A DNA stretch of 64,000 bases from an uncultured Candidatus Saccharibacteria bacterium (GCA_964495685.1 CAZBVQ010000001.1:39477-103476), one strand, 5' to 3'; shown: positions 45,536 through 63,928, numbered from the stretch's first letter. Made by a program: numbers and translations. The notes: a model not told the origin generated them from the letters alone.

Positions 45536-46648
45536 ATGAAGAAAACAATCTGGTGGATAGTCGGCATCGTTGTTGCAATCCTTATAATTATTGCCATTTC
45601 TCGTGGGTCATCGACTACAAGTTCAGGTCCCATTAAGATAGGTTTTATTGGACCTTTGACTGGCGATACTTCTTCGCTCGGCCAAGCTAGCAAGTCGGCT
45701 GTTGAGATTGCGATTGATGAGCTAAATCAATCAGGTGGGGTTAATGGTCGCCAGCTTCAGGTTATTTATGAAGACGGCAAATGTTTGGCAGCTTCTGGTT
45801 TAAGTGCAGGACAAAAACTCATCAGTTATGACAAGGTAACTGCTATTATTGGCGGGCTTTGCACTTCGGAGACAGCCTCTTTTGTAAAAATTGCTAGTGA
45901 TGCAAAAGTCCCTGTGATCTCATATTGTTCGTCTGCACCGTCTTTGAGCCAATCAGGTCCATATTTCTTTAGGACTTATCCTTCAGATTCATACCAAGGC
46001 AAATTTGCAGCAGAGTACGCATACAACACTCTTGGCGCGAGAAATGTTGCCGTTCTTTACCATATATCTGACTGGGGAACTGGCATCAAAGATGTGTTCA
46101 CAAAAAGATTCACCGAACTCGGTGGGAAAATTGTTGATGTGGAGGGAACCCTTCAGGAATCGCGTGACTATAAAACTCAGCTAACGAAAGTAAAGGCTGC
46201 CAATCCTGATTATATCTACATGCCAATGTATATTGAGGGTTCATTGATTGCAGTACAACAGGCGCAGGATCTTGGAATAAAGACAAAACTTCTCGGTACG
46301 GATACATGGAGTGATCCTAAGTTTGTTAGCGCAGTGAATAAAAATGCGGATATCTTATATGCTGGTTCCACGGGAAATTCTGATGAAGCGTTCCAAAATA
46401 AGTATATAGCCAAGACCGGTGAGAAACAGGTTCCTATATGTGCTCCTCAGGCTTATGATGCTGTGACGGCGTTAGCTTCTGCAATGAAAGAGGTTGGTAC
46501 CGATGCTACTAAGCTTCCTGATGCGATTCGCAGCCAGAATTTCCAAGGTGTAACAGGTCAAGTATCTTTTGATGCTAATGGAGACATCACTCATGTTGGT
46601 TATGTAGTGAAAAGAGTTAAGGATGGGCAAGTAATTCAGATACAGTAG
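45536..46648 (+). CDS. ABC transporter substrate-binding protein, LivJ/Peripla_BP_6 family, paralog 1 (N-terminal TM anchor)
   Basis: TM helix, then IKIGFIGPLTGDTSSLGQ and a type I periplasmic-binding fold. Confidence 0.8.
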   Translation: MKKTIWWIVGIVVAILIIIAISRGSSTTSSGPIKIGFIGPLTGDTSSLGQASKSAVEIAIDELNQSGGVNGRQLQVIYEDGKCLAASGLSAGQKLISYDKVTAIIGGLCTSETASFVKIASDAKVPVISYCSSAPSLSQSGPYFFRTYPSDSYQGKFAAEYAYNTLGARNVAVLYHISDWGTGIKDVFTKRFTELGGKIVDVEGTLQESRDYKTQLTKVKAANPDYIYMPMYIEGSLIAVQQAQDLGIKTKLLGTDTWSDPKFVSAVNKNADILYAGSTGNSDEAFQNKYIAKTGEKQVPICAPQAYDAVTALASAMKEVGTDATKLPDAIRSQNFQGVTGQVSFDANGDITHVGYVVKRVKDGQVIQIQ

Positions 46649-46651
46649 CAA

Positions 46652-47443
46652 TTACACCTTCGCCTGCTTCCAGGCAATCTCAAAAATCATCCTCATCATT
46701 CCGTGAATAGTGTCGTCCTCGATGATGATACCGATGACATTGTCTTTGGTTAGTTTTGTTATGGAGACTTTGTTTTGTCCGTAAATGGTCAGTTCTGCTT
46801 CATAAGGGAAGTCTTCTTTGGGCACAAAGCGCATAATTGGCCATAGATCTTTGCGGATCCCCGAAAAAACATCCTTGTCGTATACTCTATCTTCTGCCGT
46901 ATCAGGAAGAATCCCGCGGGTCGTGATACCCAGCCGTTCTTTACCTTTGATAAAATCGCGAAGATCGCGCTTTGGCATATAATCCTTGAATAATTTTGCA
47001 TTAGAAAATGCAAGCATCTCATATTTCTTTGGCTCGGATATCATATCGACACAAATTTTCTTGACAGCATCTGGACCTTCGAAAAATCGTATCTTTGGCG
47101 CTTTGTCGAAAGCAGAAAATATTTTGCGCAATTCAGGCACGATCTTTTCTATGTTTTCGAGTTGGTCTTCGGCCATACGTATTCTAGTCTTGCCGTAGTG
47201 AACGAGTTTCTCAGGGCTCTCGGGTTGGTAGAAGACTTTATTTCTCTTCTTAATCTCATTAGCCAGTCCTTTAACTGAAAGCTCAAGAAGTATCCTATAG
47301 GTCGTGCTTCTTTTGATTCTTGCATGATCAGCTATTTTGGATGGAAAGCCTCCACCAAGTTCCAAGAGGGCACTGTATACGGCGGCCTCCTTGTCGGTTA
47401 ATCCGCTCCTACCCAATACCGTACTTAAAGTTGTGTTGTTCAT
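46652..47443 (-). CDS. TrmB-family transcriptional regulator, paralog 1
   Basis: N-terminal wHTH (LGRSGLTDKEAAVYSALLELGGGFPSKIADHARIKRSTTYRILLELSVKGL). About 264 aa from the internal ATG at 47443. Confidence 0.7.
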   Translation of the reverse strand: MNNTTLSTVLGRSGLTDKEAAVYSALLELGGGFPSKIADHARIKRSTTYRILLELSVKGLANEIKKRNKVFYQPESPEKLVHYGKTRIRMAEDQLENIEKIVPELRKIFSAFDKAPKIRFFEGPDAVKKICVDMISEPKKYEMLAFSNAKLFKDYMPKRDLRDFIKGKERLGITTRGILPDTAEDRVYDKDVFSGIRKDLWPIMRFVPKEDFPYEAELTIYGQNKVSITKLTKDNVIGIIIEDDTIHGMMRMIFEIAWKQAKV

Positions 47444-47611
47444 GCGTTTAGCATACAGGAAACAGTGAAATTTGTCCATCCGAACGGACAGAATTGAATG
47501 AGTGATAAATACGTGCCTATATTTAGCCATTTTCCAAGATACCACATTTACAACGCGACACAAGCATTGCGTAATATACTATAATTTTGGCATTAGTAAT
47601 TAATAAAAATT

Positions 47612-48709
47612 ATGAACAAAAAATTAATTTGGATCATTGTCGGGGTCATAGTGTTAGTTGCAGTAGTCTTGGGCGTCACATTATCTGGTGGCTCCAAGCA
47701 ACCGGCAGAGAGGCAGACTGTTAAGATCGGCCTTGCATTGCCTCTAACAGGAGGTGCTGCGTTCCTTGGGGAATCGGCTAGAAACGCTGCGCAAATGGCG
47801 CTAGCTGACGCTGGTCAGACTAAGTACGATTATTCATTGGACATCGAAGACGATGCTTTCAATCCAGCAAAGACTGCGACTGTTGTAAGCAAATTCGTGA
47901 ACATAGATAAAGTGTCCGCAATTGTCACGTTTGGATCAGCGACAAGTAATGCCGCCGCTCCTATAAACGAAAATGCCGAAGTACCTAGATTTGGACTTGC
48001 TTCAGATCCCACGTCCGCTGTTGGTGATTACAACTTTATTCACTGGACGCCTCCTTTCAAAGAGGGACAGTTATCAGTTGAAGAGATGGTAAAGAGAGGA
48101 TACAAAACGATTTCTATCGTTGATACCAATCACTCTGGGACGCTCGCAGTCACAAAACCGGTTAGGGAAGCATTGGCAAATACAAATATAAAGATATTAT
48201 CGGATGATCTTACCAATGTTGGTGATAAGGATTTCAGAACGATAGTCACGAAAATCAAAGCCTTAAAGCCCGATATCGTTCTCGTGGAAATGTTTTCGCC
48301 TGAGATCGAGATCTTCGCAAAACAAATGAAAGAGCTTGGTGTGAAAACGCCGATGACTAGCGTCGAGACATTCGAATGGAGTAACGATCCGTCGTTATTC
48401 GAAGGAATGTGGTTTATTTCCGACGTTAGGGTTGATCAGAGTTTCTCTGACAAATATAAGGCAAGATTTGGTGATACTCCGAAGCCTGGAGCAACTTATG
48501 TCTACGATCTTGTATCTCTATTCATTCGAACTCAGGAACAATCAAATAGTAAACTGACTCCCACAGAGATGAGGGATGCGATCATAAAGACCGGGTATGA
48601 TGATTCACCAATCTTCGGAAAAATCGCGATTGATAAAGATGGATTCTTCATTACTGAGGCCTCTGTAAAGATGATAAAGGACGGCAAGGCGGTGCTGATT
48701 CCAAACTAA
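47612..48709 (+). CDS. ABC transporter substrate-binding protein, LivJ/Peripla_BP_6 family, paralog 2
   Basis: TM anchor plus VKIGLALPLTGGAAFLGE. 365 aa. Confidence 0.8.
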   Translation: MNKKLIWIIVGVIVLVAVVLGVTLSGGSKQPAERQTVKIGLALPLTGGAAFLGESARNAAQMALADAGQTKYDYSLDIEDDAFNPAKTATVVSKFVNIDKVSAIVTFGSATSNAAAPINENAEVPRFGLASDPTSAVGDYNFIHWTPPFKEGQLSVEEMVKRGYKTISIVDTNHSGTLAVTKPVREALANTNIKILSDDLTNVGDKDFRTIVTKIKALKPDIVLVEMFSPEIEIFAKQMKELGVKTPMTSVETFEWSNDPSLFEGMWFISDVRVDQSFSDKYKARFGDTPKPGATYVYDLVSLFIRTQEQSNSKLTPTEMRDAIIKTGYDDSPIFGKIAIDKDGFFITEASVKMIKDGKAVLIPN

Positions 48710-48726: not shown

Positions 48727-48758
48727 ACAAAAATCGCTCTACAGAGAGCGATTTTTGT
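48727..48758 (+). terminator. intrinsic terminator (AAAAATCGCTCT-ACAG-AGAGCGATTTTTGTTG)
   Basis: Perfect stem with a flanking T-run after SBP paralog 2. Confidence 0.55.
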
Positions 48759-48773: not shown

Positions 48774-49640
48774 GTGGATATACTTCCTCAACTCATTCTG
48801 AATAGCATTATTGCCGGAGCGATCTACGCCATGATCGCTCTTGGTTTTAATCTCATTTATGGCACAGCGAAATTCTTTGACCTTGGCTACGGTGCTCTCA
48901 CAGCTGTTGGGGGATACTCAGTGTTCTACTTCTACAAGACGCTCGGCTTGAATATTTACGTATCGATCATTCTCGGCATGCTCATTGCTGGCATTGTCGG
49001 CTTTCTAGTCTATCGTCTGGTGTACTCGCCGCTTCGAGCCAAGAAATCTTCTGGCATGGTCCTCTTGGTCGCAGCTCTCGGAGTTCTAACTGCCATTCAA
49101 GCTATCATCGCTATTCTTTTCACGAGCCAATTTCAGACCCTTTCACAAAGCGCAGGTTCGGAGAGCGTATTCAATGTATTCGGGGGAGTGATTACGCAAA
49201 CTCAACTGATTACTCTGATTCTCGGTCTCCTCATTATGGTGGGCATAGGTCTTGTTTTCCGTTTCACATTATTCGGTAAGGCCATCAAAGCAATCGGCGA
49301 TGACGAAGAGGTTTCACAGATCGTTGGTATCAATACAAACAAGATAATTGGCTGGGTTTTCTTCATTGGTTCAGCCATTGGAGGACTGGCCGGCATTCTG
49401 ATTGGCTTTGATACGGGCATCGAGCCGACGATGGGGCTATCACTGCTTCTCAAAGGAGTCATCGCTTCGATCATCGGTGGGATCGGTAATGTTTATGGAG
49501 GAGTAATAGGGGCGTTCTTACTCGCATTCATCGAAAACTTCGGGATCTGGCAGATTTCAGGGGAATGGAAGGATGCTATCGCCTTCGCTGTGCTGATTTT
49601 ATTCTTGTTGTTCAGACCACAAGGTATTTTAAGAAGATAA
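48774..49640 (+). CDS. livH: branched-chain amino acid ABC transporter permease, LivH type
   Basis: 288 aa, 8-9 TM helices, BPD_transp_2 family pattern. Confidence 0.8.
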   Translation: MDILPQLILNSIIAGAIYAMIALGFNLIYGTAKFFDLGYGALTAVGGYSVFYFYKTLGLNIYVSIILGMLIAGIVGFLVYRLVYSPLRAKKSSGMVLLVAALGVLTAIQAIIAILFTSQFQTLSQSAGSESVFNVFGGVITQTQLITLILGLLIMVGIGLVFRFTLFGKAIKAIGDDEEVSQIVGINTNKIIGWVFFIGSAIGGLAGILIGFDTGIEPTMGLSLLLKGVIASIIGGIGNVYGGVIGAFLLAFIENFGIWQISGEWKDAIAFAVLILFLLFRPQGILRR

Positions 49641-49641: not shown

Positions 49642-50508
49642 ATGGAATATTTAATTCACTTAGCAATTCTAATTTCAATCTATGCCATCCTAGGTCTCTC
49701 TTTGAACTTGGTTGTGGGTTTCACTGGATTACTTTCAGTAACACAAGCTGCGTTTTACGGCATTGGCGCATATGTCACAGCGATATTGCTAACAAGCTTG
49801 GGAATGAATTTCTTCCTAGCTTTAATAATTGGAATGGCAATAACTGGTGTTTGCAGTCTTTTGATCGGCTTTGTTCTTTCTAAATTTAAAGATGACTACT
49901 ACGCACTTGGCTCATTCGGCTTTAACGTAATTATTTATAGTATTTTCCTAAATTGGCAATCACTTACACGTGGTCCGCTCGGTATTCCCGGCATTTCAAG
50001 ACCTTCACTATTTGGATTCACTTTCTCTGATAACTTATCTTTTCTAATTTTATCAGTAGTCTTCTTGCTGTTGGTTTTCGGAGTCTGCCATTTCATTGCC
50101 AAGTCTTCATTCGGCCGAGTTTTGAAAGCGATTAGAGAGGATGAAGAAGCGATTTCTGTATTTGGATACCACACACTATGGTACAAGCTTGCGATTTTTG
50201 TGATTGGGGCGATGTTGGCCTCGATTGCAGGATCACTATTTGCTTCATATATAACTTTCATTGACCCATCCAGCTTCAGTCTCACGGAATCAATCTTTAT
50301 TTTGGCCATAATAATTCTCGGTGGTCTTGCTAGTAACAAGGGTTCAGTCTGGGGAGCAGTGTTTCTAATCCTCCTGCCGGAAATTTTACGCTTCGTTGGT
50401 TTTCCAGATGATATTGCAGCGCAAATGAGGCAGGTGGTTTATGGAGTGATACTAATTCTACTTATGCTTTACCGCCCTCAAGGCCTCGTCGGGGAGTACA
50501 GATTGTAA
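49642..50508 (+). CDS. livM: branched-chain amino acid ABC transporter permease, LivM type
   Basis: 288 aa polytopic; immediately follows livH. Confidence 0.8.
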   Translation: MEYLIHLAILISIYAILGLSLNLVVGFTGLLSVTQAAFYGIGAYVTAILLTSLGMNFFLALIIGMAITGVCSLLIGFVLSKFKDDYYALGSFGFNVIIYSIFLNWQSLTRGPLGIPGISRPSLFGFTFSDNLSFLILSVVFLLLVFGVCHFIAKSSFGRVLKAIREDEEAISVFGYHTLWYKLAIFVIGAMLASIAGSLFASYITFIDPSSFSLTESIFILAIIILGGLASNKGSVWGAVFLILLPEILRFVGFPDDIAAQMRQVVYGVILILLMLYRPQGLVGEYRL

Positions 50509-50518: not shown

Positions 50519-51607
50519 TTAGATTTTGAAGTCTCCGTTTTCATACGTAGCCATCTTCCACTCAGGAACACGGAGACCCATTCCAAGCTCGTCAAAAGCT
50601 ATTGGTCCAGTTGCGCCATCTCCCTTGAACTTCTCGATATTATTTAACCAACGACTCTTGTCTGGGTTATATGTTTCAGCCATGACCAAATATGCATCGT
50701 AACCATAACCTGCAAGCTCGCTTGGGTCAGAATTGAAGCGCTTTTTATATTTGTTTGTAAAATCAGCTGATACTTCAGAGGCTGAATACATGGCAGTACT
50801 GCCGTTCAGTATGCGGTTCATAGAAGAGCCAAGGGTGGTTTGGTAATCTGTGAAGGAAAACTGAAGGTTTAAGTCGAAGTACAAATGAGGCGCATGGTAT
50901 CCGAGCTGGTCCATTCGCGTGAGAATCTGTCCTCCAACTTTTCCATCTACAAACATAACAAGTCCCTGCGAGTTTAGCTCTTTGATTTTCAGGGCTACCG
51001 GATTGAAATCTCGCTCTGTCATCGGCACGCGCACGATGGATACCGTCCCGTTAAATTTCTTTTCAAAATCTGAAAGGAACTTCTCGTAGGCTTTTATCTG
51101 TTGCATCACGACCGTCACAGTCTTAACGCCCTGCGTATTAGCAGAATCACCAAGCATGCCTACTGCGGTCTGATCGGGGAAGATCTGCACAATATTGTCC
51201 TTATCTATTTCACTTTCAGCCCCGAGTTGTAGAACTGGAATATCTTTTTTCTGAACATCCGACTTGATAACGTCGATTGTTGGAGACGAAAGATTTATCA
51301 AAGCGTCAATTTTATCGATAGACACTTCCTTTTGATATGCCGATAATCCTTTCTTAGAATCATAACCGTCATCTTCCGCTATCAGATCCATTTTTGGAGC
51401 AGAAGGATTTTTTGATTCGAATTCTTCTTTTGCAAGGATGGCACCATTCAAGAACCCCTGACCAAGGTTATCATTTCCGACTGTTAATCCAGTTAACGGT
51501 GAAATCAAACCAATACGTACGTTCTGGTGTGAAATCCTATTTTCATAAACGATAAAGATAATAACAAGCGCAATGATTGCTAAAACAGCGTACAATATTT
51601 TTTGCAT
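50519..51607 (-). CDS. ABC transporter substrate-binding protein, LivJ/Peripla_BP_6 family, paralog 3
   Basis: When started at the ATG at 51607: TM anchor MQKILYAVLAIIALVIIFIVY, then VRIGLISPLTGL. The longer upstream reading frame is probably not translated. Confidence 0.7.
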   Translation of the reverse strand: MQKILYAVLAIIALVIIFIVYENRISHQNVRIGLISPLTGLTVGNDNLGQGFLNGAILAKEEFESKNPSAPKMDLIAEDDGYDSKKGLSAYQKEVSIDKIDALINLSSPTIDVIKSDVQKKDIPVLQLGAESEIDKDNIVQIFPDQTAVGMLGDSANTQGVKTVTVVMQQIKAYEKFLSDFEKKFNGTVSIVRVPMTERDFNPVALKIKELNSQGLVMFVDGKVGGQILTRMDQLGYHAPHLYFDLNLQFSFTDYQTTLGSSMNRILNGSTAMYSASEVSADFTNKYKKRFNSDPSELAGYGYDAYLVMAETYNPDKSRWLNNIEKFKGDGATGPIAFDELGMGLRVPEWKMATYENGDFKI

Positions 51608-51757
51608 AATATGATCATAATACTGCGCGGTCACAAATGTGTCAAATAAATGAACAATCCTTGCAATAATATAACCCGACGCTAAGCCAGATTTAAGGTA
51701 ATTTGTACAATTTGTCAGAATTATTGACAAAAGCCCTATCTCTGATATGTTTGTGAC

Positions 51758-52498
51758 ATGGATCAAATCAGTAGCTCTCTGAATAATATTGGGCTTTCGG
51801 ACAAGGAGTCCAAGATATATGTCACACTTCTCAAGCTGGGGGAAGCTACTGTGGCAGAAATTTCCACGGAAGCTGGTATAAAGAGGCCAACAGCTTACAT
51901 AATTCTTGATGAATTGAGGAAAAAGGGGATAGCGCTGAAAATACCTCATCCTAAAAAGATTGTATATCAGGCAAAACCGCCTAACGAGCTTTTTGAACGC
52001 GCTAAGGAAAACTTAAACGAATTTCAGCGATTATTGCCGAAAATTAATGCCATTTCTGTCCAAAAAAAATCTATTAAGACCCTATATTTTGAAGGCTTTC
52101 AGGGTGTAAAAGATGCATTATTTTACAGAATGAACGAATTGAAAGGTGAAACTGTCTCGGGTTTTTGGGCAAAAAACAGTGGCATTGAGAAGGATGTATT
52201 TGGTCTTCTTGATAAATGGGGAAAGCAATATTTGAAAAATAATATAACTATCGCGGGTATAACTCCTGATCACGAATCAATTCGTGATCTACGATTAAAG
52301 TATCCGGAGGAATATAAGAAAATTGTGCCCGTCTCAGAAGCAGAATATTCCTCAGATATTTCCATTGATGTGGTTAAGGATTTTGTGAGGATAATTGATC
52401 CACATAGTTTGAAAGCTATAATCATAGAAAACGATCGTGTTGCGCGTGCATTAAAACAGATATTTACAATTGTTGAGAAGAAATACGGTATCTCATGA
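51758..52498 (+). CDS. TrmB-family transcriptional regulator, paralog 2
   Basis: wHTH: IGLSDKESKIYVTLLKLGEATVAEISTEAGIKRPTAYIILDELRKKGIA. Confidence 0.7.
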   Translation: MDQISSSLNNIGLSDKESKIYVTLLKLGEATVAEISTEAGIKRPTAYIILDELRKKGIALKIPHPKKIVYQAKPPNELFERAKENLNEFQRLLPKINAISVQKKSIKTLYFEGFQGVKDALFYRMNELKGETVSGFWAKNSGIEKDVFGLLDKWGKQYLKNNITIAGITPDHESIRDLRLKYPEEYKKIVPVSEAEYSSDISIDVVKDFVRIIDPHSLKAIIIENDRVARALKQIFTIVEKKYGIS

Positions 52499-52815: not shown

Positions 52816-52850
52816 AAAAGGCTCGGTTCAATCCCGGGCCTTTGTCATTT
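52816..52850. terminator. 35-nt bidirectional terminator element, copy 1 (AAAAGGCTCGGTTCAATCCCGGGCCTTTGTCATTT)
   Basis: 10-bp GC-rich stem with an A-run and a T-run. Overlaps the 3' end of TrmB paralog 3. Identical copy at 55299-55333. Confidence 0.6.
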
Positions 52851-53619
52851 TTGAAATACTAGATAACTGGTGTGCCAAGTCTTTGTTCTTCCACATAAAG
52901 TTAAATATTTCTCGAATGGTCTTTGCCAGATCGGCGTTCTCGATAATCACCATCTGATTGTTTCGGTTAAGAACAAGACGGACAATATTTGAGAAAGTGT
53001 CGATTGAAACAGCTGACGAATATATCGAATATGGAAGAATGTGAGTTATTCGCTTCTGAGACGTATCCGTTTTTCTGAAACTCACAAGAGATGGATGGTC
53101 GGGCACAAAAGCTCTAAGTGTTATGTTGTTATTTGCGGTAAATTCATTATATTCCTCACAAATTTGAAGCAGTTTCGCTGACATATCTTTCGCTTCTGCA
53201 TAAAAACCGACTATTTCCTTTCCAAATGCTTCCTCGATTCGATAATGCAAGGCCTCTTTGAATGCTTTTAAGCCTTCGAAATGCATCACATTCATTTTCT
53301 CAGGCGTTTTTATACTCCCGATGGATTTGAGTGACGGCAGAAGCTTCTTCGCTTCATCCATGCGATGCTCGGCATCCTGAAAAAGTATCTCTGGGGCAAC
53401 TGGTTTGTATATCCGTTTTGAAGCACGAGGAATTCTGTGCGCTGCACCTTTCTCGATGAGCTCGTCCAAGATCACATATGTCGTCGGTTTCTTCAGTCCA
53501 GATTGCTCAGATATGGCATAAGCTGAACCCTTTCCTAGTTTTAGGAGCGCTAAATACACTTGTGCCTGCTTGTCAGTGAATCCTATGTTGGTTAGCCCAG
53601 AAACTAATGTTGTATCCAT
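52828..53619 (-). CDS. TrmB-family transcriptional regulator, paralog 3
   Basis: wHTH: IGFTDKQAQVYLALLKLGKGSAYAISEQSGLKKPTTYVILDELIEKGA. Confidence 0.7.
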   Translation of the reverse strand: MDTTLVSGLTNIGFTDKQAQVYLALLKLGKGSAYAISEQSGLKKPTTYVILDELIEKGAAHRIPRASKRIYKPVAPEILFQDAEHRMDEAKKLLPSLKSIGSIKTPEKMNVMHFEGLKAFKEALHYRIEEAFGKEIVGFYAEAKDMSAKLLQICEEYNEFTANNNITLRAFVPDHPSLVSFRKTDTSQKRITHILPYSIYSSAVSIDTFSNIVRLVLNRNNQMVIIENADLAKTIREIFNFMWKNKDLAHQLSSISKMTKARD

Positions 53620-56316: not shown

Positions 56317-57423
56317 ATGAATAAGAAAACAATATGGCTCATAGGAAGCGCAATTGTCATTATCGTCGCGATCGTGCTAGTACGCGGTTTTAGCGGAAAT
56401 GATTCAAGTTCCATTAAATTGGGACTCATGCTGCCTTTAACTGGCGACTACGCTGCAGCTGGCCAAAATATGCAAAAAGGCATGACTGTAGCTCTTGAAC
56501 AGTATGAAAAGGATCATCCGAATGTGCATGTCACCACAGTCGTCGAGGATGATGCATATGATGCTACAAAGGGTGTAACTGCTTATAAAAAGTTAGTCGA
56601 TCTGGACAAAGTCGATGCAATTCTTATGTTATCGACACCGGTCATTGATGCAATCCATGAAGACGTCGTGAAAAGGGGCATTCCGGTCATTCAGCTCGGC
56701 GTTCAAACAGTCGGTGTTGGGGATGATAATATCATCCAGTTCAGTCCGGCGGCTGACGCGCCAATTGGATTTCTAGCGAAGTATTTGGCGAACTCATCAG
56801 GATTTTATTCCAAGAAAGTGGCAGTGATCTACGATAATTCCGCAGCGCAATTGAGCTTCTACAAGATCTTCGAGCAGAATTATACACACGAATTCACGCC
56901 TCTAATTGTGAACGGAAAGGATGTGTTTCGAAGTTATGCCACCAAGATTGCTAACGAAGGCTACGGTGCCGTCGTGGTTATCGAATCGCCACAGAACGGT
57001 GCGCTGTTCACAAAAGAATTACTAACGGTGGACAAGACCTTGCCGACGATTGCCTACGATGCACAGCTTCAAACTGGATTTGCAGACTATGGCCGCATAC
57101 TTGGTGATACTAACAAGATAAACGGAGCAATATCTATGTGGTTCAAGTCAGGAAAGATGGACGAGCTCACCAAATTGTATCAAGCCAAATACGGAGAAAC
57201 TCCCGGCTTTTTGGTAGACTTCTCGTACGACATGATTAATACAGCATTGGCTACCTATGACAAAGACCAGGCAAAGTGGGTAAGTAACCTCAAGAAGTAT
57301 CAAGATCCAAATGGCGCTTCCGGATCAATATCATTTGATAGCAATGGCGTGCGATTACAGCCCATGGTGATCACGCAAGTGCAGAGTGGAAAGCTTGTAC
57401 CAGTAGATGATGTGAAACTGTAA
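56317..57423 (+). CDS. ABC transporter substrate-binding protein, LivJ/Peripla_BP_6 family, paralog 5
   Basis: TM anchor plus IKLGLMLPLTGDYAAAGQ. Confidence 0.8.
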   Translation: MNKKTIWLIGSAIVIIVAIVLVRGFSGNDSSSIKLGLMLPLTGDYAAAGQNMQKGMTVALEQYEKDHPNVHVTTVVEDDAYDATKGVTAYKKLVDLDKVDAILMLSTPVIDAIHEDVVKRGIPVIQLGVQTVGVGDDNIIQFSPAADAPIGFLAKYLANSSGFYSKKVAVIYDNSAAQLSFYKIFEQNYTHEFTPLIVNGKDVFRSYATKIANEGYGAVVVIESPQNGALFTKELLTVDKTLPTIAYDAQLQTGFADYGRILGDTNKINGAISMWFKSGKMDELTKLYQAKYGETPGFLVDFSYDMINTALATYDKDQAKWVSNLKKYQDPNGASGSISFDSNGVRLQPMVITQVQSGKLVPVDDVKL

Positions 57424-57540
57424 TTCGGATTTGATTCTCAAGAAAATACCGTGCCTTGTGGGTACGGTATTTTCATTGTAAGATGAATATCATAATGGTG
57501 TAACACTGGGTTAAATTAACAATTTCTTAAATATAACTTC

Positions 57541-58614
57541 ATGAATTCATCTACAAAATGGTATTGGATAGTAGGAATATTAGTAGTAATTATTGCCATA
57601 CTCGCAATTGTTATCCCGAAAAATAAAACAACAAGCGAGTCTTCAAATTATGTTGTTGGAGCTATTTTGCCCATGACTGGTCCAGCCGCTCTATGGGGAG
57701 AGACTTTTAAAAATGGTATGGAATTAGCATTAAGAAATCATCCTGAATTGCAGGTTATTTTTCAGGATAGTAAATCGACGGCACAAGATGGCATCTCCGC
57801 ATTTAATGTCTTAAAAGATAGAGATGTTAATCTGATGGTATCTGAATTGTCTCTTGTCTCGGTCCCACTAGCCAAGGTAGCTCTGGATCAAAAGGTTCCA
57901 CTATTTGTTTCTCTTGTGGCTACGAATCATCAGAATATTGTGAATGATTTTACAACAAGATACTACACCGATCCGACCAATTATGCTCTACCTGCATTTA
58001 CAGATCCAATTTCTCCTCTAATAAGCGCAAAGAAAATAGCTTTGCTGTACAGGAATGATGAATTAGGAGTATCAGTCAAAGACAAGATCAATGAACTCAG
58101 TAAGAATAATGATAAACAAATCGTTGCTCAGGAATCGTTTATGCCTAATGAAAAGGACTACAGAACTGTTTTGACGAAAATAAAGAATTCAGATTTACAG
58201 GTGTTCATCTTTGTGGTTGCGAATCCGATTGAAGCTACTGGTATTGTCAAAACAGCGAGCGAATTGGGTTTGAAAATACCCATGATAGAATCGTCTGCAG
58301 TTTTTGCTGACCTCGATACCCGCAAGCAGGTTCAAGGAATACCGTTTTATTCTTCCTCATACGACTTTTCCTTGCCTGATAAGGCGATTGAGTTCAAAAA
58401 GCAATATTCTGAGAAATTTGGTAAGGAGCCAAACTTTAGTTCAGCCTTTGGTTACGATATCGTGAATCTTATTGGAGCATGTGTAAAAAAGAACGTAGAC
58501 ATAAAAGCATGTTTATCAACAGTTAACGAATTTGATGGTGTAGCGGGAGTTGCTACACAAACTGCACCAAGTGATTTTGTCGTAAAACTGCATCTGGAAA
58601 AAGTAAATTTTTGA
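57541..58614 (+). CDS. ABC transporter substrate-binding protein, LivJ/Peripla_BP_6 family, paralog 6 (most divergent)
   Basis: TM anchor plus YVVGAILPMTGPAALWGE. Lower-GC, AT-rich codon usage. Confidence 0.7.
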   Translation: MNSSTKWYWIVGILVVIIAILAIVIPKNKTTSESSNYVVGAILPMTGPAALWGETFKNGMELALRNHPELQVIFQDSKSTAQDGISAFNVLKDRDVNLMVSELSLVSVPLAKVALDQKVPLFVSLVATNHQNIVNDFTTRYYTDPTNYALPAFTDPISPLISAKKIALLYRNDELGVSVKDKINELSKNNDKQIVAQESFMPNEKDYRTVLTKIKNSDLQVFIFVVANPIEATGIVKTASELGLKIPMIESSAVFADLDTRKQVQGIPFYSSSYDFSLPDKAIEFKKQYSEKFGKEPNFSSAFGYDIVNLIGACVKKNVDIKACLSTVNEFDGVAGVATQTAPSDFVVKLHLEKVNF

Positions 58615-60415: not shown

Positions 60416-61537
60416 TTATATTTGTGAAGCCTTTCCGCTCTGAATGACGAACAATGAGTATCGGGCATTTGTTCGATCATTTTTCTGATCGAAGCTGATG
60501 TTGCCACTTACACCATCGTAGTTGGCTTGAGCGAGGTAGTTTTTTACTCCCGAAGCTGTTTGATTTGTCTTAAGAGCATTAGCTAACAACTGGATGGCAT
60601 CGTATTCGGCTGCACAGATGTTTATCTGAGGGCAATCTGTTCCATATTTCGATTTGTATTCAGCGAGTATCTTATTGAACTCTGGAGTTGCTTGGAATAC
60701 GTAGTCGCCTCCCACAGCACCTTCAAGTAAGGCCGAGTGCTTTGTGAGTAGCGCTGAAGCCTTGAGAATATTGTCATTTATGAACATATGCTTCGGTTTG
60801 AACCCGAGTTGTTCCATTTGGGTAAGAACTGTTTCACCACTCGGCACAGTTTGAACGCTTACAAAAACGACATCGGGATTTGTGGCTTGCAGTTTGGTGA
60901 GTTGAGTTCTGACATCTGTAGCTCCGGAAGCGAATGATTCGCTTGTGACGGTTATATCTGTATTAGCGAGATCTTTTGTGAGAGAGATTTGAAGTCCTTT
61001 TGCATAATCCGTTTCTTCATAGATCACTGCAATCTTTTTGTATCCTTGTGCAATTGCGCGATCAGCCAAAAGTTTCGCCTCTTGTCCGTCTGATGCCCAG
61101 TTTCTGAAGAAGTTGGGTGAAATTGCTGTGAGTTTGTCAGCGCTTGTCACTGTTCCGAGCAAGACTGCATCGTTCTGAGCTAAGTTAGGTGCCATAGCGG
61201 CGACTGTTCCGCTGCATGCAACAGTTGTAAGTACATGGATTCCATCAGTACTGACCAATTTTTGGAAAGCTGATGCGGCTGTCTTTGGATCACATTTATG
61301 ATCTTCAGATACCAGCTCGAGTTTCTTGCCGTTAATTCCGCCTGCAGCATTTATATCGTCGACGGCGATAATAGCAGTATTATGAGCAGGCTCGCCATAG
61401 GAAGCGAGGCCTCCAGTAAGAGGGTACATGCCACCGATCTTGATCGTGTCGCTCTGCTTCGAGAATTGAGCAGCTACTATTACAAGAACTATTACTACGA
61501 TTACTAAAATGGCCCCGAGGGTGTATTTATTTTTCAT
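60416..61537 (-). CDS. ABC transporter substrate-binding protein, LivJ/Peripla_BP_6 family, paralog 7
   Basis: TM anchor plus IKIGGMYPLTGGLASYGE. Confidence 0.8.
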   Translation of the reverse strand: MKNKYTLGAILVIVVIVLVIVAAQFSKQSDTIKIGGMYPLTGGLASYGEPAHNTAIIAVDDINAAGGINGKKLELVSEDHKCDPKTAASAFQKLVSTDGIHVLTTVACSGTVAAMAPNLAQNDAVLLGTVTSADKLTAISPNFFRNWASDGQEAKLLADRAIAQGYKKIAVIYEETDYAKGLQISLTKDLANTDITVTSESFASGATDVRTQLTKLQATNPDVVFVSVQTVPSGETVLTQMEQLGFKPKHMFINDNILKASALLTKHSALLEGAVGGDYVFQATPEFNKILAEYKSKYGTDCPQINICAAEYDAIQLLANALKTNQTASGVKNYLAQANYDGVSGNISFDQKNDRTNARYSLFVIQSGKASQI

Positions 61538-61676
61538 GTTATTAATGAATTAATTCTATACCATATATTTTACGCTCATTCAATAGTTTGTCAAATGTGT
61601 TGACGAATGTTAAGAAAAGAACTATAATAGCTATATAAATTGGCATAATATTGTTGTCGAGAAATAGGACAAAATC

Positions 61677-62420
61677 ATGAAAACAGTCGAATTTGCAGAA
61701 ATATTGAAGGATTTCGGGCTCGATATTAACGAGTCGAAAGTCTATATTGCCATGCTTTCTCTTGGTCCGTCCAAGGTTTTACGTATTGCCAAAGAAGCAG
61801 AAATCAAAAGAACTAGTGTTTATGCCGTGATCGAAGGTCTTCGACAGAAAGGTCTTGTAGAAATTCAGGTGAAAGGACTGAAAAAACTATATGCAGCAGC
61901 TAGTCCCGAGCAACTTGAAAGCATGATAGAACTCAAAAGACAGAAGTTCCGTGATATTTTACCGGAACTAAAAGCATTGGATACATTTAAAGGAAAAGAG
62001 AGCTTTATTAAATATTATGAGGGGCTCAATGGTGTTAAATCTGTTTACGATAGAATTCTGGACGATTTGAAACCAGGCGATGATTACATGATTGTTTCCA
62101 ATATGGAGCAATTCCTTGATATGGATCGAGAATATTTTGCGGATTTCATAAAACGCCGTGCCGCATACAACTTGAAGGTGAGGACTCTCATTCTTGATTC
62201 ACCTAGTGCGCGTCACTATAAGGAGCATGAGAAGAGTACAAATCAATCGATTAAATTTTTACCAAGTGACACGAAATTGAGCGCCAATTTAGTGATAACA
62301 ACGCACCGTGTGGTCATTACTCAGACTGTTAAGCCGATCATGTCCATTGTGATAGAGAATAAAAATATAGTTGAGATCCAAAAGGAGCAATTTGATATAG
62401 TGTGGGACTCGATAAAGTAA
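61677..62420 (+). CDS. TrmB-family transcriptional regulator, paralog 5
   Basis: wHTH: FGLDINESKVYIAMLSLGPSKVLRIAKEAEIKRTSVYAVIEGLRQKGLVE. Confidence 0.7.
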   Translation: MKTVEFAEILKDFGLDINESKVYIAMLSLGPSKVLRIAKEAEIKRTSVYAVIEGLRQKGLVEIQVKGLKKLYAAASPEQLESMIELKRQKFRDILPELKALDTFKGKESFIKYYEGLNGVKSVYDRILDDLKPGDDYMIVSNMEQFLDMDREYFADFIKRRAAYNLKVRTLILDSPSARHYKEHEKSTNQSIKFLPSDTKLSANLVITTHRVVITQTVKPIMSIVIENKNIVEIQKEQFDIVWDSIK

Positions 62421-62439
62421 GCTTTCTTAAACGGCGAAA

Positions 62440-63207
62440 TTGAGGCATAATTTACTTATGCTTCAGCTTTCGACTAAATCCATTGTTAAACACTTCGATG
62501 GTGTTTATGCTGTCAATAAGCTCTCGCTCAATTTTGAGTCTGGAAAAATAACTGGAATCATCGGTCCAAACGGATCAGGCAAATCCACGCTCGTAAATTT
62601 GCTCACCGGCCTCATTCCGTTCGACAAAGGTGAGGTTTTAGTAAGTGGCGAGACTTTAACCAAAGTTCATCCTCACCAAGTACCGTTTTATGGCGTTACG
62701 CGCACGTTTCAGGATGTGAGATTATTCGAGCAGATGCCCGTTATCGATAATATTCTTGTCGTTCTAACACAACGAAGCATTTGGTCATCTTTGTTTGAAA
62801 GACACAATAAGTTTCACATAGAAAAAGCGGAAGCAGTGCTCAAAAAAGTGGGTCTATGGGAAAAACGTAACGAACTTGCCAAGAACTTGTCTTACGGTCA
62901 ACGCAAACTATTAGAAATCGCTCGCGTCTGTGCCATGAGTCATAGTGGAACAGCTGATTTGGAAGTTATTTTATTCGATGAACCTTTCGCTGGTCTATTT
63001 CCAGAAATGATCAAGATAGTTTCATCCGTAATGCAGGAATTACGATCGCAAGGTAAGGCAGTTATCCTCATAGAACATAATATGGAGCTGATCCGAGGCC
63101 TTTCTGATTATCTCTATGTTCTGGATTCGGGGGAACTTTTGGCTGAAGGGAAGCCTGACGAGGTATTAGCTAGAAAAGATGTAATTGAAGCGTATTTGGG
63201 AGAATAA
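62440..63207 (+). CDS. livG: branched-chain amino acid ABC transporter ATP-binding protein, LivG type
   Basis: Walker A GPNGSGKST, ABC signature LSYGQRKLLEIAR, Walker B ILFDEP. Confidence 0.85.
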   Translation: MRHNLLMLQLSTKSIVKHFDGVYAVNKLSLNFESGKITGIIGPNGSGKSTLVNLLTGLIPFDKGEVLVSGETLTKVHPHQVPFYGVTRTFQDVRLFEQMPVIDNILVVLTQRSIWSSLFERHNKFHIEKAEAVLKKVGLWEKRNELAKNLSYGQRKLLEIARVCAMSHSGTADLEVILFDEPFAGLFPEMIKIVSSVMQELRSQGKAVILIEHNMELIRGLSDYLYVLDSGELLAEGKPDEVLARKDVIEAYLGE

Positions 63208-63208
63208 T

Positions 63209-63928
63209 ATGAAGGAAATTTTATTAAAACTTGAGGACATTCATGTTCACTACGGAGGAGTGAAAGCTCTTGATGGTGCTTCTGTGGCCGTAGATGAAGG
63301 AGAGATTGTCGCTCTCATGGGTCCTAACGGTGCTGGTAAATCGACGATTCTCAAAACGATATTTGGCCTAGCGGCCTTCGAATCTGGCAAGGTCTATTGG
63401 GAAGGACAGGCGTTTACTCCTGTTTCCCACGAAGTAGTGAAGCGAGGTATTTCATTTGTGCCACAAGGACGCAGGGTTTTTAGGCATCTAACCGTCTTGG
63501 AAAATCTTGAGATTGGAGGATTCGGTCTGTCACGAAATGAACGAGAGGAAAGGATAAACAACGTACTCGAGCTATTTCCTGCGTTAAAAGGCAAATTAAA
63601 GGCAAAATCAGGCACGTTATCGGGTGGTCAGCAGCAGATGTTAGCTATTGCCAGAGGCCTCATGACTGATCCGAAGGTTCTACTTTTGGATGAACCGTCA
63701 CTAGGCTTGGCTCCTAAGATCGTTAAGGAAGTTTTTGCCAAGATTAAAGAAATAAATGAGCGACGCAGGACGGCAGTTATAGTTGTTGAGCATAATATAA
63801 AATCACTGGTTGAGATCTCGAATCGAGTGTACGTACTTGATAAGGGGAAGATAGTTGCGCATGGCGATCCTAAGACCTTGATTTCCTCTGAAATCATGGA
63901 AAAAGTATTTCTAGGTAAGCTCTCTTAG
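63209..63928 (+). CDS. livF: branched-chain amino acid ABC transporter ATP-binding protein, LivF type
   Basis: Walker A GPNGAGKST, signature LSGGQQQMLAIAR, Walker B LLLDEP. Start set at the ATG at 63209 right after the livG stop. Confidence 0.85.
   Translation: MKEILLKLEDIHVHYGGVKALDGASVAVDEGEIVALMGPNGAGKSTILKTIFGLAAFESGKVYWEGQAFTPVSHEVVKRGISFVPQGRRVFRHLTVLENLEIGGFGLSRNEREERINNVLELFPALKGKLKAKSGTLSGGQQQMLAIARGLMTDPKVLLLDEPSLGLAPKIVKEVFAKIKEINERRRTAVIVVEHNIKSLVEISNRVYVLDKGKIVAHGDPKTLISSEIMEKVFLGKLS

What the first reader, a model, noticed from the sequence alone, without database searches (positions are those of the whole stretch)
45536..63928. Array of seven paralogous LivJ-type binding proteins and five TrmB-family regulators sharing a single permease/ATPase set
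Within 18 kb there are 7 Peripla_BP_6 substrate-binding proteins, each with an N-terminal TM anchor, but only one LivHM permease pair and one LivGF ATPase pair. Five of the binding proteins lie divergently next to a TrmB-family winged-helix regulator.

TrmB regulators are best known for sugar transporters in archaea and Thermotogae, not for Liv-type amino-acid or amide systems. The repeated regulator/binding-protein modular layout looks like a diversified ligand-sensing or scavenging battery rather than a standard liv operon.

The paralogs are strongly diverged in sequence, so they are old duplications or separate acquisitions. The region sits next to a serine recombinase and a tRNA, so it may be a mobile accessory island.
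Basis: partly seen in the sequence, partly recalled or inferred. Interest (0 to 1): 0.75.

Follow-up and report, generated by a model that had tools for sequence, protein, structure and literature searches.

The report
Regulator–binding-protein cassettes around one importer
A tiny-genome bacterium (Patescibacteria) surrounds one amino-acid-type ABC importer with seven very different binding proteins, five paired with their own TrmB-like regulator and operator; the layout is common in this lineage, and I found no paper describing it.

Summary
Window 45536-63928 holds 7 Peripla_BP_6 binding proteins (17-34% identical, each with an N-terminal hydrophobic anchor), 5 TrmB-family regulators, one LivHM pair and one LivGF pair. 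Five regulator/binding-protein pairs are divergent.

The host is a Patescibacteria (Paceibacteria, near Ca. Taylorbacteria) bacterium. The locus is not a curiosity of this genome. LivM relatives (68-92% identical) occur in at least 80 species. 18 of those loci have 7 or more binding proteins. 77 of 86 TrmB-like genes there sit divergently beside a binding-protein gene.

Regulator and binding protein are co-inherited (Mantel r=0.72). Each regulator class has its own conserved palindrome over its promoter. The regulators have TrmBL2 architecture and lack TrmB's sugar-binding subdomain.

The island idea fails. A relative has the cluster at the same CCA/tRNA site without the recombinase.

Best reading: one conserved translocator serves a swappable battery of locally regulated binding proteins that widen nutrient uptake. 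Regulation, ligands and sharing of the translocator are inferred, not shown. The components are known kinds. I found no paper on the cassette organisation in this lineage.

The parts
45536..46648 (+). SBP1: membrane-anchored LivJ-type binding protein, and the only paralog that keeps the canonical amino-acid-binding residues. It has no regulator of its own in this genome.
   Evidence: Peripla_BP_6 192 bits. Best solved relatives are 4GNR, 3TD9 and LivJ 1Z15. It keeps the equivalents of LivJ S79, T102, Y150, Y202 and E226, plus the C53-C78 disulfide.
46652..47443 (-). T1: TrmB-family regulator, divergent from SBP2-livHM.
   Evidence: PF01978 43.8 bits. Likely start is MNNTTL; the ORF extends to 47563. 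Promoter TGGACA-17-TATGCT at 47478-47450 ends 6 nt before the ATG.
47471..47492 (.). Candidate T1 operator TTTGTCCATCCGAACGGACAGA, overlapping the T1 -35 box.
   Evidence: The element TTTGTCAC-N-ACGAACAAAA is conserved in 16 of 17 T1-type/SBP2-type intergenic regions of other species, while the flanking sequence is not.
47612..48709 (+). SBP2: binding protein, first gene of the SBP2-livH-livM unit.
   Evidence: Peripla_BP_6 140.7 bits. The type is present in 25 loci.
48729..48756 (+). Hairpin plus T-run between SBP2 and livH, a candidate attenuating terminator.
   Evidence: Perfect 8-bp-plus inverted repeat AAAAATCGCTCT-ACAG-AGAGCGATTTTT.
48774..49640 (+). livH-type permease.
   Evidence: BPD_transp_2 147.5 bits.
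49642..50508 (+). livM-type permease.
   Evidence: BPD_transp_2 171.6 bits. It is 68-92% identical in 80 species.
50519..51607 (-). SBP3: binding protein of the SBP3/4/5 clade, a rare type.
   Evidence: Peripla_BP_6 100 bits. It forms a singleton cluster at 40% identity. Promoter TTGACA-17-TATTAT at 51645-51617.
51711..51731 (.). Candidate T2 operator TTTGTCA-N7-TGACAAA, overlapping the T2 -35 box.
   Evidence: Perfect 7-bp arms. The same TTGTCA-N7-TGACAA is found at the same distance upstream of T2 orthologs in L004, L005, L007, L008 and L009.
51758..52498 (+). T2: TrmB-family regulator, divergent from SBP3.
   Evidence: PF01978 60 bits. AlphaFold model pLDDT 91. The best fold match over the full length is TrmBL2 5BPI, E 9e-12. 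Its orthologs elsewhere are not next to binding proteins.
52828..53619 (-). T3: TrmB-family regulator, divergent from SBP4.
   Evidence: PF01978 58.4 bits. Promoter TTGACT-17-TAGTAT at 53654-53626 ends 6 nt before the ATG.
53649..53667 (.). Candidate T3 operator AGTCAATAATTTTGATGAC, overlapping the T3 -35 box.
   Evidence: Conserved in orthologous intergenic regions of L012, L022, L030, L046 and L080.
53821..54909 (+). SBP4: binding protein of a subfamily whose named members are all from Patescibacteria.
   Evidence: Peripla_BP_6 115 bits. No NCBIfam hit. Homologs that carry a name are all from Patescibacteria. AlphaFold pLDDT 93, a type-I binding-protein fold.
55328..56164 (-). T4: divergent TrmB-family regulator, divergent from SBP5-SBP6.
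   Evidence: PF01978 29.7 bits. hhalign against the T-family profile gives probability 97% over 238 columns. Promoter TTGACA-16-TATACT at 56198-56171.
56182..56196 (.). Candidate T4 operator GACAAA-AAA-TTTGTC, inside the T4 promoter.
   Evidence: Perfect palindrome. T4-type cassettes elsewhere carry palindromes of the same architecture, such as TGACTAA-N3-TTAGTCA.
56317..57423 (+). SBP5: binding protein.
   Evidence: Peripla_BP_6 98.4 bits.
57445..57473 (+). Terminator-like hairpin between SBP5 and SBP6.
   Evidence: 8-bp arms followed by TTTT.
57541..58614 (+). SBP6: binding protein with most LivJ ligand-contact residues replaced.
   Evidence: Peripla_BP_6 98.3 bits. Residue table.
60416..61537 (-). 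SBP7: binding protein, divergent from T5.
   Evidence: Peripla_BP_6 189.7 bits. Promoter TTGACA-16-TAAAAT at 61594-61567.
61587..61607 (.). Palindrome TTTGTCAA-ATGTG-TTGACGAA: the back-to-back -35 boxes of the SBP7 and T5 promoters, and the candidate T5 operator.
   Evidence: Two promoter matches of 11/12 on opposite strands share it. The related TTGTCAA-N5-TTGACAA occurs in L049 and L053.
61677..62420 (+). T5: TrmB-family regulator, apparently co-transcribed with livG-livF.
   Evidence: PF01978 63.3 bits. It lies 19-37 nt upstream of livG on the same strand.
62440..63207 (+). livG-type ATPase (the called start is probably 62458).
   Evidence: ABC_tran plus BCA_ABC_TP_C. Called as 249 aa.
63185..63928 (+). 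livF-type ATPase (the called start is 63209).
   Evidence: ABC_tran 122 bits. The exact product is found only with the 63209 start.

Best explanation
This is the chromosomal, lineage-typical nutrient-import locus of a Paceibacteria (Patescibacteria/CPR) bacterium.

A single, strongly conserved HAAT-family translocator (LivHM permeases and LivGF ATPases) is served by seven membrane-anchored, deeply diverged LivJ-type binding proteins that present different ligands to it.

Five binding-protein genes are built as divergent cassettes with a TrmBL2-like regulator. The regulator has a winged-helix DNA-binding domain, a coiled coil and one PLD-like C-terminal domain. Each regulator binds a cassette-specific palindrome that overlaps its own, mostly leaderless, promoter. 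It thereby autoregulates and sets expression of the neighbouring binding-protein gene. T1 would also control livHM, and T5 would also control livGF.

Over evolutionary time cassettes are gained, lost and reshuffled between and around livHM and livGF. This gives each species its own substrate repertoire.

Shown here: the family and fold assignments, the layout, its recurrence in at least 80 species, co-inheritance of regulator and binding protein, and class-specific conserved palindromes at the regulator promoters.

Inferred: that all seven binding proteins dock to the one LivHM, that the regulators control the binding-protein genes, that they respond to a small molecule, and what the ligands are. 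By conserved residues, amino acids are likely for SBP1 only.
For: Families:
- No extra copies exist in the window.
- T2 matches TrmB 3QPH over residues 3-137 and keeps the DNA-recognition Tyr (Y47, equivalent to Y50) (PMC4158304).
- The T2 model (pLDDT 91) matches full-length TrmBL2 at E 9e-12.
- The SBP4 model (pLDDT 93) matches LivJ-type binding proteins.

Recurrence:
- LivM is 68-92% identical in 80 loci, out of 122 relatives found.
- These loci hold a mean of 3.8 and a maximum of 13 binding proteins within +-10 kb. 18 loci have 7 or more.
- 38 loci contain at least one T gene.
- 77 of 86 T genes are divergent and less than 600 bp from a binding-protein gene.
- livM and livG are split by inserted cassettes in 45 of 64 loci.
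- 293 binding proteins fall into 67 clusters at 40% identity.

Modules:
- Mantel correlation of T identity against partner binding-protein identity is r=0.72, reached by 0 of 999 permutations.

Operators:
- Class-specific palindromes are conserved across species while the flanks are not.
- Palindromes of score 7 or more occur in 45% of T-proximal segments against 18% of shuffles. Their centres lie a median 38 nt from the T start codon.
- In the window they overlap promoter matches of 9-11 out of 12.

Diversified pockets: the residue table is.

Vertical, chromosomal locus.
Against: - The regulators lack the TrmB effector (sugar-binding) subdomain: no PF11495 hit, and lengths of 246-278 aa. Their best structural match, TrmBL2, is described as a non-specific chromatin protein and global repressor with no known ligand. 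Ligand sensing is therefore unsupported.
- Close homologs of T2 and T5 sit at non-Liv loci. The family is a general local regulator family, not a Liv-specific one.
- In the longer intergenic regions the palindrome is 70-120 bp from the binding-protein start, and no second operator copy was found at the binding-protein promoters.
- Several palindromes contain TTGACA-like -35 hexamers. They could partly be a by-product of divergent promoters.
- Many related loci carry large binding-protein arrays with no T gene at all, for example L016 and L044.
- Some orthologous binding proteins are paired with unrelated T types (L015).
- Neither ligands nor docking were tested.
- A second Liv permease elsewhere in this genome cannot be excluded, because only the window and 10 kb beyond it were seen.
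Confidence: 0.6

Rival explanations
1. The TrmB-like proteins are ligand-independent autoregulators or nucleoid-type repressors, like TrmBL2. They happen to be the common local regulator of this phylum, and they do not tune each binding protein to its substrate.
For: - The best fold match is TrmBL2, and there is no effector subdomain.
- Homologs at 43-63% identity occur next to unrelated genes.
- There are 1,313 cluster representatives of full-length relatives at E<=1e-30, so this is a large general family.
- The operators lie over the T promoters rather than over the binding-protein promoters.
- Arrays without any T gene exist.
Against: - 77 of 86 T genes in Liv loci are divergently paired with a binding-protein gene, and the two are co-inherited.
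- The palindromes are sequence-specific and class-specific. TrmBL2, by contrast, is described as binding both coding and intergenic regions (PMC4158304).
- In compact cassettes one palindrome covers both -35 boxes.
- The C-terminal domain is well conserved within orthogroups.
Confidence: 0.22
2. Most of the seven proteins are not transport receptors. They would be surface sensors or adhesins of an episymbiont, diversifying under host or phage pressure, and only one or two would feed LivHMGF.
For: - They are anchored at the cell surface.
- Diversity is extreme: 67 clusters at 40% identity among 293 proteins.
- Canonical amino-acid contacts are kept only in SBP1.
- Copy number varies from 0 to 13 per locus.
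Against: - They are always clustered with, and often inserted between, the permease and ATPase genes.
- No extra domains are present, and the intact two-lobe fold is predicted with high confidence.
- Individual types are conserved at 70-89% identity between species, which is not the pattern of arms-race hypervariability.
Confidence: 0.1
3. The cluster is a mobile accessory island brought in by the adjacent serine recombinase at a tRNA site.
For: - The recombinase (44031-45386) lies next to four tRNAs.
- GC content is lower in the cluster (39-46%) than upstream (45-51%).
- Restriction-modification, methyltransferase and ImmA-like genes follow livF.
Against: - L021 has the same CCA enzyme, the same four tRNAs and then a Liv cluster, with no recombinase. 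L067 is similar.
- The recombinase is present in only 3 of 80 loci.
- LivHM identity scales with that of the CCA enzyme.
- No long direct or inverted repeats bound the cluster.
- Cassette debris on both sides of the recombinase suggests that it inserted into a pre-existing array.
Confidence: 0.05

Closest known systems
E. coli LivJ/LivK-LivHMGF (HAAT family, high-affinity branched-chain amino-acid transport)
   Same: It has the same five component families. Two binding proteins share one translocator. SBP1 aligns with LivJ 1Z15 (E 1e-26) and keeps its ligand-contact residues and its disulfide.
   Different: - There are seven binding proteins here rather than two, at 17-34% identity.
- They are membrane-anchored rather than periplasmic.
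- livHM and livGF are separated by 11.9 kb of cassettes.
- Local TrmB-like regulators take the place of Lrp control (the Lrp point is from my own knowledge).
- Most paralogs lack the amino-acid contact set.
TrmB and the trehalose/maltose ABC transporter operon of Thermococcus litoralis and Pyrococcus furiosus
   Same: A PF01978 regulator is encoded with, and locally controls, the genes of a binding-protein-dependent ABC importer. The recognition Tyr is conserved, and T2 matches 3QPH.
   Different: - The host is a bacterium with sigma-70-type promoters.
- The effector domain lacks the sugar-binding subdomain (no PF11495 hit).
- The binding protein is LivJ-type, not MalE-type.
- There are five paralogous regulator/binding-protein cassettes instead of one regulator.
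- The operators are unrelated to the TACT-type TrmB sites (the TACT point is from my own knowledge).
TrmBL2 (TK0471/PF0496), archaeal chromatin protein and global repressor
   Same: It is the best structural match over the full length (5BPI, E 9e-12). It has the same ~250-265 aa architecture without the C-terminal 70-residue sugar-binding part.
   Different: Sequence identity is 17-19%. The proteins here sit in gene-specific divergent cassettes with class-specific palindromes, whereas TrmBL2 is described as binding both coding and intergenic regions.
Multiple binding proteins sharing one permease in reduced-genome or scavenging bacteria (Borrelia OppA1-5 with one OppBCDF; Rhodopseudomonas palustris LivJ-type aromatic-acid binders). 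Borrelia is from my own knowledge; the R. palustris structures appear.
   Same: The logic is the same: substrate range is widened by multiplying the receptor rather than the translocator. SBP4's top fold hits include the R. palustris 4-hydroxybenzoate binder 4EVQ.
   Different: The transporter family differs from Opp. Each receptor is packaged with a dedicated regulator. Cassette content varies between species of one lineage.

Membership tests
TrmB family of transcription regulators | N-terminal winged-helix DNA-binding domain matching PF01978 above the gathering score | tested here: met
   T1 43.8, T2 60.0, T3 58.4, T4 29.7 and T5 63.3 bits against a cut-off of 25.6. T4 is confirmed by a profile comparison over 238 columns.
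TrmB family of transcription regulators | Conserved DNA-recognition tyrosine (Y50 of TrmB) | tested here: met
   T2 Y47 aligns with Y50 of 3QPH and is invariant in the 18-sequence family alignment. The following Asp (D51) is replaced by Ile or Val.
TrmB family of transcription regulators | C-terminal effector-binding domain (PF11495) with the sugar-binding subdomain, as in TrmB and TrmBL1 | tested here: not met
   No PF11495 hit at E<=0.01. Lengths are 246-278 aa. The fold matches the 264-aa TrmBL2, which lacks the 70-residue sugar-binding part.
TrmB family of transcription regulators | Sugar-responsive DNA binding | not testable with these tools
   This needs gel-shift assays with effectors.
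HAAT-family (LivHMGF-type) ABC importer | Two BPD_transp_2 permeases plus two ABC ATPases, one of them carrying the BCA_ABC_TP_C tail | tested here: met
HAAT-family (LivHMGF-type) ABC importer | Binding protein of type I (Peripla_BP_6, LivJ fold) | tested here: met
   All seven score 98-192 bits. The SBP4 model has TM 0.74-0.78 to 4GNR, 3TD9 and 4EVQ.
HAAT-family (LivHMGF-type) ABC importer | Residues that bind the amino-acid alpha-amino and alpha-carboxylate groups (LivJ S79, T102, Y202, E226) | tested here: inconclusive
   All are kept in SBP1. SBP7 has Q202 and N226. SBP2 and SBP3/4/5 have a deletion at positions 100-103. SBP6 has lost most of them. The alignment is at 17-31% identity.
Several binding proteins sharing one translocator | Physical and functional docking of each binding protein to the same permease | not testable with these tools
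   Only co-location is shown, plus the absence of another permease in the window and the 10 kb beyond it.
Integrase-borne genomic island | Presence linked to the recombinase, and absence from the same site in relatives | tested here: not met
   L021 has the same site occupied without a recombinase. The recombinase occurs in 3 of 80 loci.
Integrase-borne genomic island | Flanking direct repeats or attachment sites | tested here: not met
   No repeat pair bounds 45.5-64 kb. The only perfect repeat (35 nt, 52816 and 55299) is a terminator hairpin with unrelated flanks.

The most novel reading that the evidence does not exclude
The regulator/binding-protein pairs are true plug-in specificity cassettes. 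Each TrmBL2-like regulator would sense, through its PLD-like C-terminal domain, the cytoplasmic form of the very ligand that its partner binding protein delivers. That would be a new effector-sensing mode for the TrmB family. Paceibacteria would exchange these cassettes around an almost invariant translocator, so the cassette set of a genome would read out which host or environmental metabolites that uncultivated organism lives on.
Probability: 0.3. Interest if true: 0.7.

Novelty: new variant of a known kind. Interest (0 to 1): 0.48.

Why it matters
Patescibacteria/CPR bacteria lack most biosynthetic pathways and are largely uncultivated. What they take up, and how they regulate anything with so few regulators, is largely unknown.

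This locus occupies about 2.6% of a roughly 0.7-Mb genome. It appears to be a main import system of the Paceibacteria: a highly conserved translocator with a very diverse receptor repertoire (67 types at 40% identity among 81 genomes).

The soluble ectodomains and the small regulators can be made recombinantly. Ligand screens and operator-binding assays could therefore read the nutritional niche and regulatory logic of these organisms without culturing them.

The locus also extends the TrmB family into bacteria as a widely used local regulator with a defined set of operator classes.

Tried and rejected
I used LivM instead.
- Looking up livF with its TTG start found nothing. The ATG start at 63209 worked.
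- I tested whether X1 (58682-59449) is a sixth, degenerate TrmB. It is not: hhalign probability is 0.6%, and there is no Pfam, NCBIfam or PDB relative.
- I looked for a recombinase-driven inversion or shuffling system. No convincing inverted repeats flank the cassettes; the best are 16-38 nt at 70-94%.
- I considered the perfect 35-nt repeat as an attachment site because its loop resembles a tRNA T-arm. I rejected this: it is a 10-bp hairpin plus T-run behind T3 and T4, with unrelated flanks.
- I tried to infer the ligand class of the SBP3/4/5 clade from structure. Fold hits mix amino-acid and aromatic-acid binders at 15-23% identity and do not discriminate.
- A shared GCC[AG]TA[TA]/hairpin element in the intergenic regions is only 3-fold enriched and occurs in 9-17 of 77 regions. 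It is left unexplained.
- The candidate ncRNA at 43.7-43.9 kb has no Rfam match and no copy in other loci.
- Literature searches combining TrmB with Patescibacteria or CPR, and CPR with branched-chain transporter binding proteins, found nothing specific.

Full report
**1. What is in the sequence**

- Seven Peripla_BP_6 (LivJ-type) binding proteins, here called SBP1-7.
- Five proteins with the PF01978 TrmB winged-helix domain, here called T1-T5.
- One pair of BPD_transp_2 permeases (livH, livM).
- One pair of ABC ATPases (livG with the BCA_ABC_TP_C tail, and livF).

A local phmmer scan of every ORF in the window finds no further copy of any of these.

Three ORFs are over-extended at the 5' end. 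The likely starts are 51607 for SBP3, 53821 for SBP4 and 47443 for T1.

All seven binding proteins start with a Lys-rich tip followed by 18-24 uncharged residues, with no lipobox cysteine. The 'N-terminal anchor' is therefore real. Whether it is cleaved cannot be told.

Pairwise identity is 17-34% among binding proteins and 14-34% among regulators.

The gene order is:
rec(-) SBP1(+) T1(-) SBP2(+) livH(+) livM(+) SBP3(-) T2(+) orf75(+) T3(-) SBP4(+) orf107(+) T4(-) SBP5(+) SBP6(+) X1(-) X2(+) SBP7(-) T5(+) livG(+) livF(+).

This gives five divergent regulator/binding-protein pairs. Two of them continue into the core transporter genes: T1<>SBP2-livHM and SBP7<>T5-livGF.

**2. Whose genome it is**

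The window carries dnaA, a class A penicillin-binding protein, PNPase, UvrD and a CCA-adding enzyme, so the host is a bacterium.

The exact proteins occur on 0.5-0.7 Mb contigs. Homologs that carry a name are from Patescibacteria, Paceibacterota or Ca. Taylorbacteria. The host is therefore a reduced-genome CPR bacterium of the Paceibacteria (Parcubacteria) group.

**3. The arrangement is lineage-typical, not unique**

A scan of one genome per GTDB species with LivM found 122 relatives. The best 80 loci have LivM at 68-92% identity and are labelled Taylorbacteria, Paceibacterota, Wolfebacteria, Nomurabacteria, Parcubacteria and similar.

I annotated the +-10 kb flanks with phmmer, using the window's proteins as queries.
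- Loci hold on average 3.8 binding proteins, and up to 13. 18 loci have 7 or more.
- 38 loci have at least one T gene, 13 have three or more, and 3 have five.
- 77 of the 86 T genes lie divergently within 600 bp of a binding-protein gene.
- The simplest loci are a contiguous SBP-livH-livM-livG-livF operon.
- In 45 of 64 loci livM and livG are separated by inserted cassettes, with a median gap of 3.8 kb. In the window the gap is 11.9 kb.

The 293 binding proteins of these genomes fall into 67 single-linkage clusters at 40% identity. SBP1, SBP2 and SBP4/5 belong to common types (39, 25 and 24 loci). SBP3, SBP6 and SBP7 belong to rare ones.

**4. Regulator and binding protein travel together**

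Across 82 pairs, identity between regulators correlates with identity between their partner binding proteins (Mantel r=0.72; 0 of 999 permutations reach it).
- The T3/SBP4 cassette recurs at 71-83% and 83-89% identity in L012, L022 and L030.
- The T1/SBP2 cassette recurs at 75% and 82% identity in L025.

The paralogs are therefore old and predate these species.

Some of this correlation reflects shared species phylogeny, and there are exceptions. In L015 a 70%-identical SBP4-type protein is paired with a regulator only 34% identical to T3, and that cassette has a different palindrome.

**5. Candidate operators and promoters**

Each regulator class has its own palindrome 20-45 nt upstream of the regulator start codon. 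The palindrome is conserved between species while the surrounding intergenic sequence is not.

| Class | Conserved element | Window copy |
|---|---|---|
| T1 | TTTGTCAC-N-ACGAACAAAA | 47471-47492 |
| T2 | TTGTCA-N7-TGACAA | 51711-51731 |
| T3 | AGTCAATAwTTTTGATGAC | 53649-53667 |
| T4 | TGACTAA-N3-TTAGTCA or GACAAA-N3-TTTGTC | 56182-56196 |
| T5 | CTCTCC-N6-GGAGAG, ATTCG-N8-CGAAT, or TTGTCAA-N5-TTGACAA | 61587-61607 |

The T2 element is also present upstream of T2 orthologs that lie outside Liv loci.

Palindromes of score 7 or more occur in 45% of the T-proximal 80-nt segments, against 18% of shuffles.

In the window they overlap strong sigma-70-type matches. The T1-T4 promoters have a -10 hexamer ending 6 nt before the ATG, so these mRNAs are probably leaderless. 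Across all cassettes, 44 of 82 show this against 15 of 82 at a control offset.

In the SBP7<>T5 region the palindrome is exactly the two back-to-back -35 boxes of two 11/12 promoter matches. One bound dimer would shut both promoters.

Two caveats apply.
- Several palindromes contain TTGACA-like hexamers, and TGTCAA/TTGACA is the most enriched 6-mer in these regions. Part of the symmetry could come from the promoters themselves.
- In the longer regions the binding-protein promoter lies 70-120 bp from the palindrome, with no obvious second site. Control of the binding-protein genes is therefore inferred from adjacency and co-inheritance, not shown.

**6. What kind of TrmB**

T2 aligns with P. 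furiosus TrmB (3QPH) over residues 3-137 and keeps the DNA-recognition tyrosine (PMC4158304).

Its AlphaFold model (pLDDT 91) matches full-length TrmBL2 best (5BPI, E 9e-12), then TrmB (6e-8). The C-terminal 170 residues also resemble a phospholipase-D-fold protein. No T protein hits the TrmB effector-domain model PF11495.

These are therefore TrmBL2-architecture proteins without the sugar-binding subdomain. The 'sugar-specific' label attached to the Pfam family should not be transferred to them.

The family is large: 1,313 cluster representatives at E<=1e-30. It is used at many other loci in Patescibacteria. T2 orthologs sit near the CCA enzyme beside a 97-aa unknown protein. T5 relatives sit near the CCA enzyme or near a YcaO gene. 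The family is a general local regulator of the phylum, and members from several subfamilies have been recruited to binding-protein genes.

**7. What the binding proteins may bind**

SBP1 is closest to S. pneumoniae LivJ (4GNR), T. maritima TM1135 (3TD9) and E. coli LivJ. It keeps the equivalents of LivJ S79, T102, Y150, Y202 and E226, and the disulfide. An amino acid is its likely ligand.

SBP7 has Q and N at positions 202 and 226. SBP2 and the SBP3/4/5 clade have a deletion at positions 100-103. SBP6 has lost most contacts (the alignment is at low identity).

The SBP4 clade has no NCBIfam model, and its named members are all from Patescibacteria. Its model (pLDDT 93) matches aromatic-acid and amino-acid binders equally well. 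The pockets are diversified, but the ligands are unknown.

**8. Not a recombinase-borne island**

Locus L021 (Ca. Taylorbacteria) has the same CCA enzyme and the same tRNA-Arg/Gly/Pro/Gly cluster. A few kilobases later comes T1<>SBP2-livHM-SBP4-T5<>SBP1-livGF, with no recombinase. L067 also links the cluster to the CCA enzyme and tRNAs.

The recombinase occurs in 3 of 80 loci.

LivH and LivM identity to these relatives exceeds and tracks that of the CCA enzyme (84% vs 68%, 75% vs 60%). This fits vertical descent under strong constraint.

Next to the recombinase there is cassette debris.
- 43929-44001 resembles the T4<>SBP5 intergenic region.
- 45450-45466 resembles half of the CTCTCC-N6-GGAGAG operator that accompanies SBP1-type genes elsewhere.

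The recombinase more likely inserted into an existing array, possibly removing SBP1's regulator.

The surroundings are nevertheless a variable region. A type ISP restriction enzyme, methyltransferases and an ImmA/HTH pair follow livF.

**9. Comparison with known systems and novelty**

The parts are known kinds.
- A HAAT importer with more than one binding protein, as in LivJ/LivK.
- A TrmB-family regulator encoded with an ABC importer, as in the archaeal trehalose/maltose system.
- Multiplied receptors on one permease in scavenging or reduced-genome bacteria.

Three things are new relative to those.
- The pairing of LivJ-type receptors with TrmBL2-architecture regulators in a bacterium.
- The repeated cassette format with class-specific operators.
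- The variable cassette content around a nearly invariant translocator across a whole CPR lineage.

Full-text searches found no paper linking TrmB to Patescibacteria or CPR, and none describing these arrays. The library does not cover all journals.

I rate it a new variant of a known kind, of moderate interest. It is not surprising in mechanism, but it is a practical handle on what uncultivated CPR bacteria import and how they regulate it.

Noticed in passing
window 43675-43960, minus strand: Candidate ~210-nt non-coding RNA. It has a strong promoter (TTGACA-N16/17-TATACT, 43960-43931), a GC-rich body and an intrinsic terminator (hairpin 43683-43708 plus T-run). There is no Rfam match at E<=1, the fold z-score is -2.1, and there is no copy in the 92 fetched loci.
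   Followed up: partly
window 52816-52850 and 55299-55333: Perfect 35-nt direct repeat forming a 10-bp hairpin with a T-arm-like loop. It acts as a bidirectional terminator behind T3 and T4. The flanks are unrelated, and one more copy occurs in L042. Perfect identity next to genes that are 14% identical implies recent conversion or a small repeated element.
   Followed up: partly
window 52569-52796 (+) and 54973-55296 (+): Two small ORFs lie between cassettes, and each ends at a copy of the 35-nt hairpin. One is 75 aa and coiled-coil-like. The other is 107 aa, Trp-rich with an N-terminal hydrophobic segment, and has its own 10/12 promoter with a TG extension at 54930-54958. Neither has a family match.
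   Followed up: partly
window 58682-59449 (-) and 59557-60357 (+): A divergent pair sits inside the array. X1 (255 aa) has no family or structure relative but carries an HEVTH (HExxH) motif. X2 (266 aa) has a partial receiver-domain match (28 bits, below the cut-off) and an 11/12 promoter. X2 homologs also lie inside the Liv loci L037 and L038.
   Followed up: partly
window 43929-44001 and 45450-45466: Cassette debris flanks the serine recombinase. On one side is a 71-72% copy of parts of the T4<>SBP5 intergenic region. On the other side, upstream of SBP1, is half of the CTCTCC-N6-GGAGAG operator found with SBP1-type cassettes in six other genomes. SBP1 may have lost its regulator to the recombinase insertion.
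   Followed up: partly
window 47450-47443, 51751-51758, 53626-53619, 56171-56164: T1-T4 have a -10-like hexamer ending 6 nt before the ATG, so their mRNAs are probably leaderless. The same holds for 44 of 82 cassette regulators in related genomes, against 15 of 82 at a control offset.
   Followed up: yes
L003-L009, d2VCZ4pJ (no DNA), L092: The closest homologs of T2 and T5 in other Patescibacteria are not beside binding proteins. They sit in a conserved neighbourhood (CCA enzyme, UPF0102, RNHCP, HU, RNase Y, ClpP), divergent from small unknown ORFs, or next to a YcaO gene. L004 has four TrmB-like genes in 20 kb.
   Followed up: partly
intergenic regions of L012-L091 and window 47510-47535, 51673-51693: A short GC hairpin followed by TAT, or GCC[AG]TA[TA], lies ~77-99 nt upstream of binding-protein starts. 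It is about 3-fold enriched and is also seen upstream of T2 orthologs outside Liv loci. Its role is unknown.
   Followed up: partly
L010 10835-19480 (10 kb beyond the window end): Directly after livF come a 1077-aa type ISP/IIG restriction-modification enzyme, two N6/N4 DNA methyltransferases (one fused to ParB_N), and an M78 peptidase plus HTH_3 pair. This is a defence and mobile-element-like neighbourhood.
   Followed up: no
window 8573-9940 and ~10-12 kb: dnaA is on the minus strand and the cumulative GC skew has its minimum at about 10-12 kb. The window probably spans the replication origin, with the Liv locus about 35-50 kb from it.
   Followed up: no
window 15642-17456 (-): A TraG/VirB4-like P-loop ATPase (604 aa) lies among large unannotated ORFs (19323-23264). 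This is a possible type IV secretion or conjugation-like apparatus.
   Followed up: no
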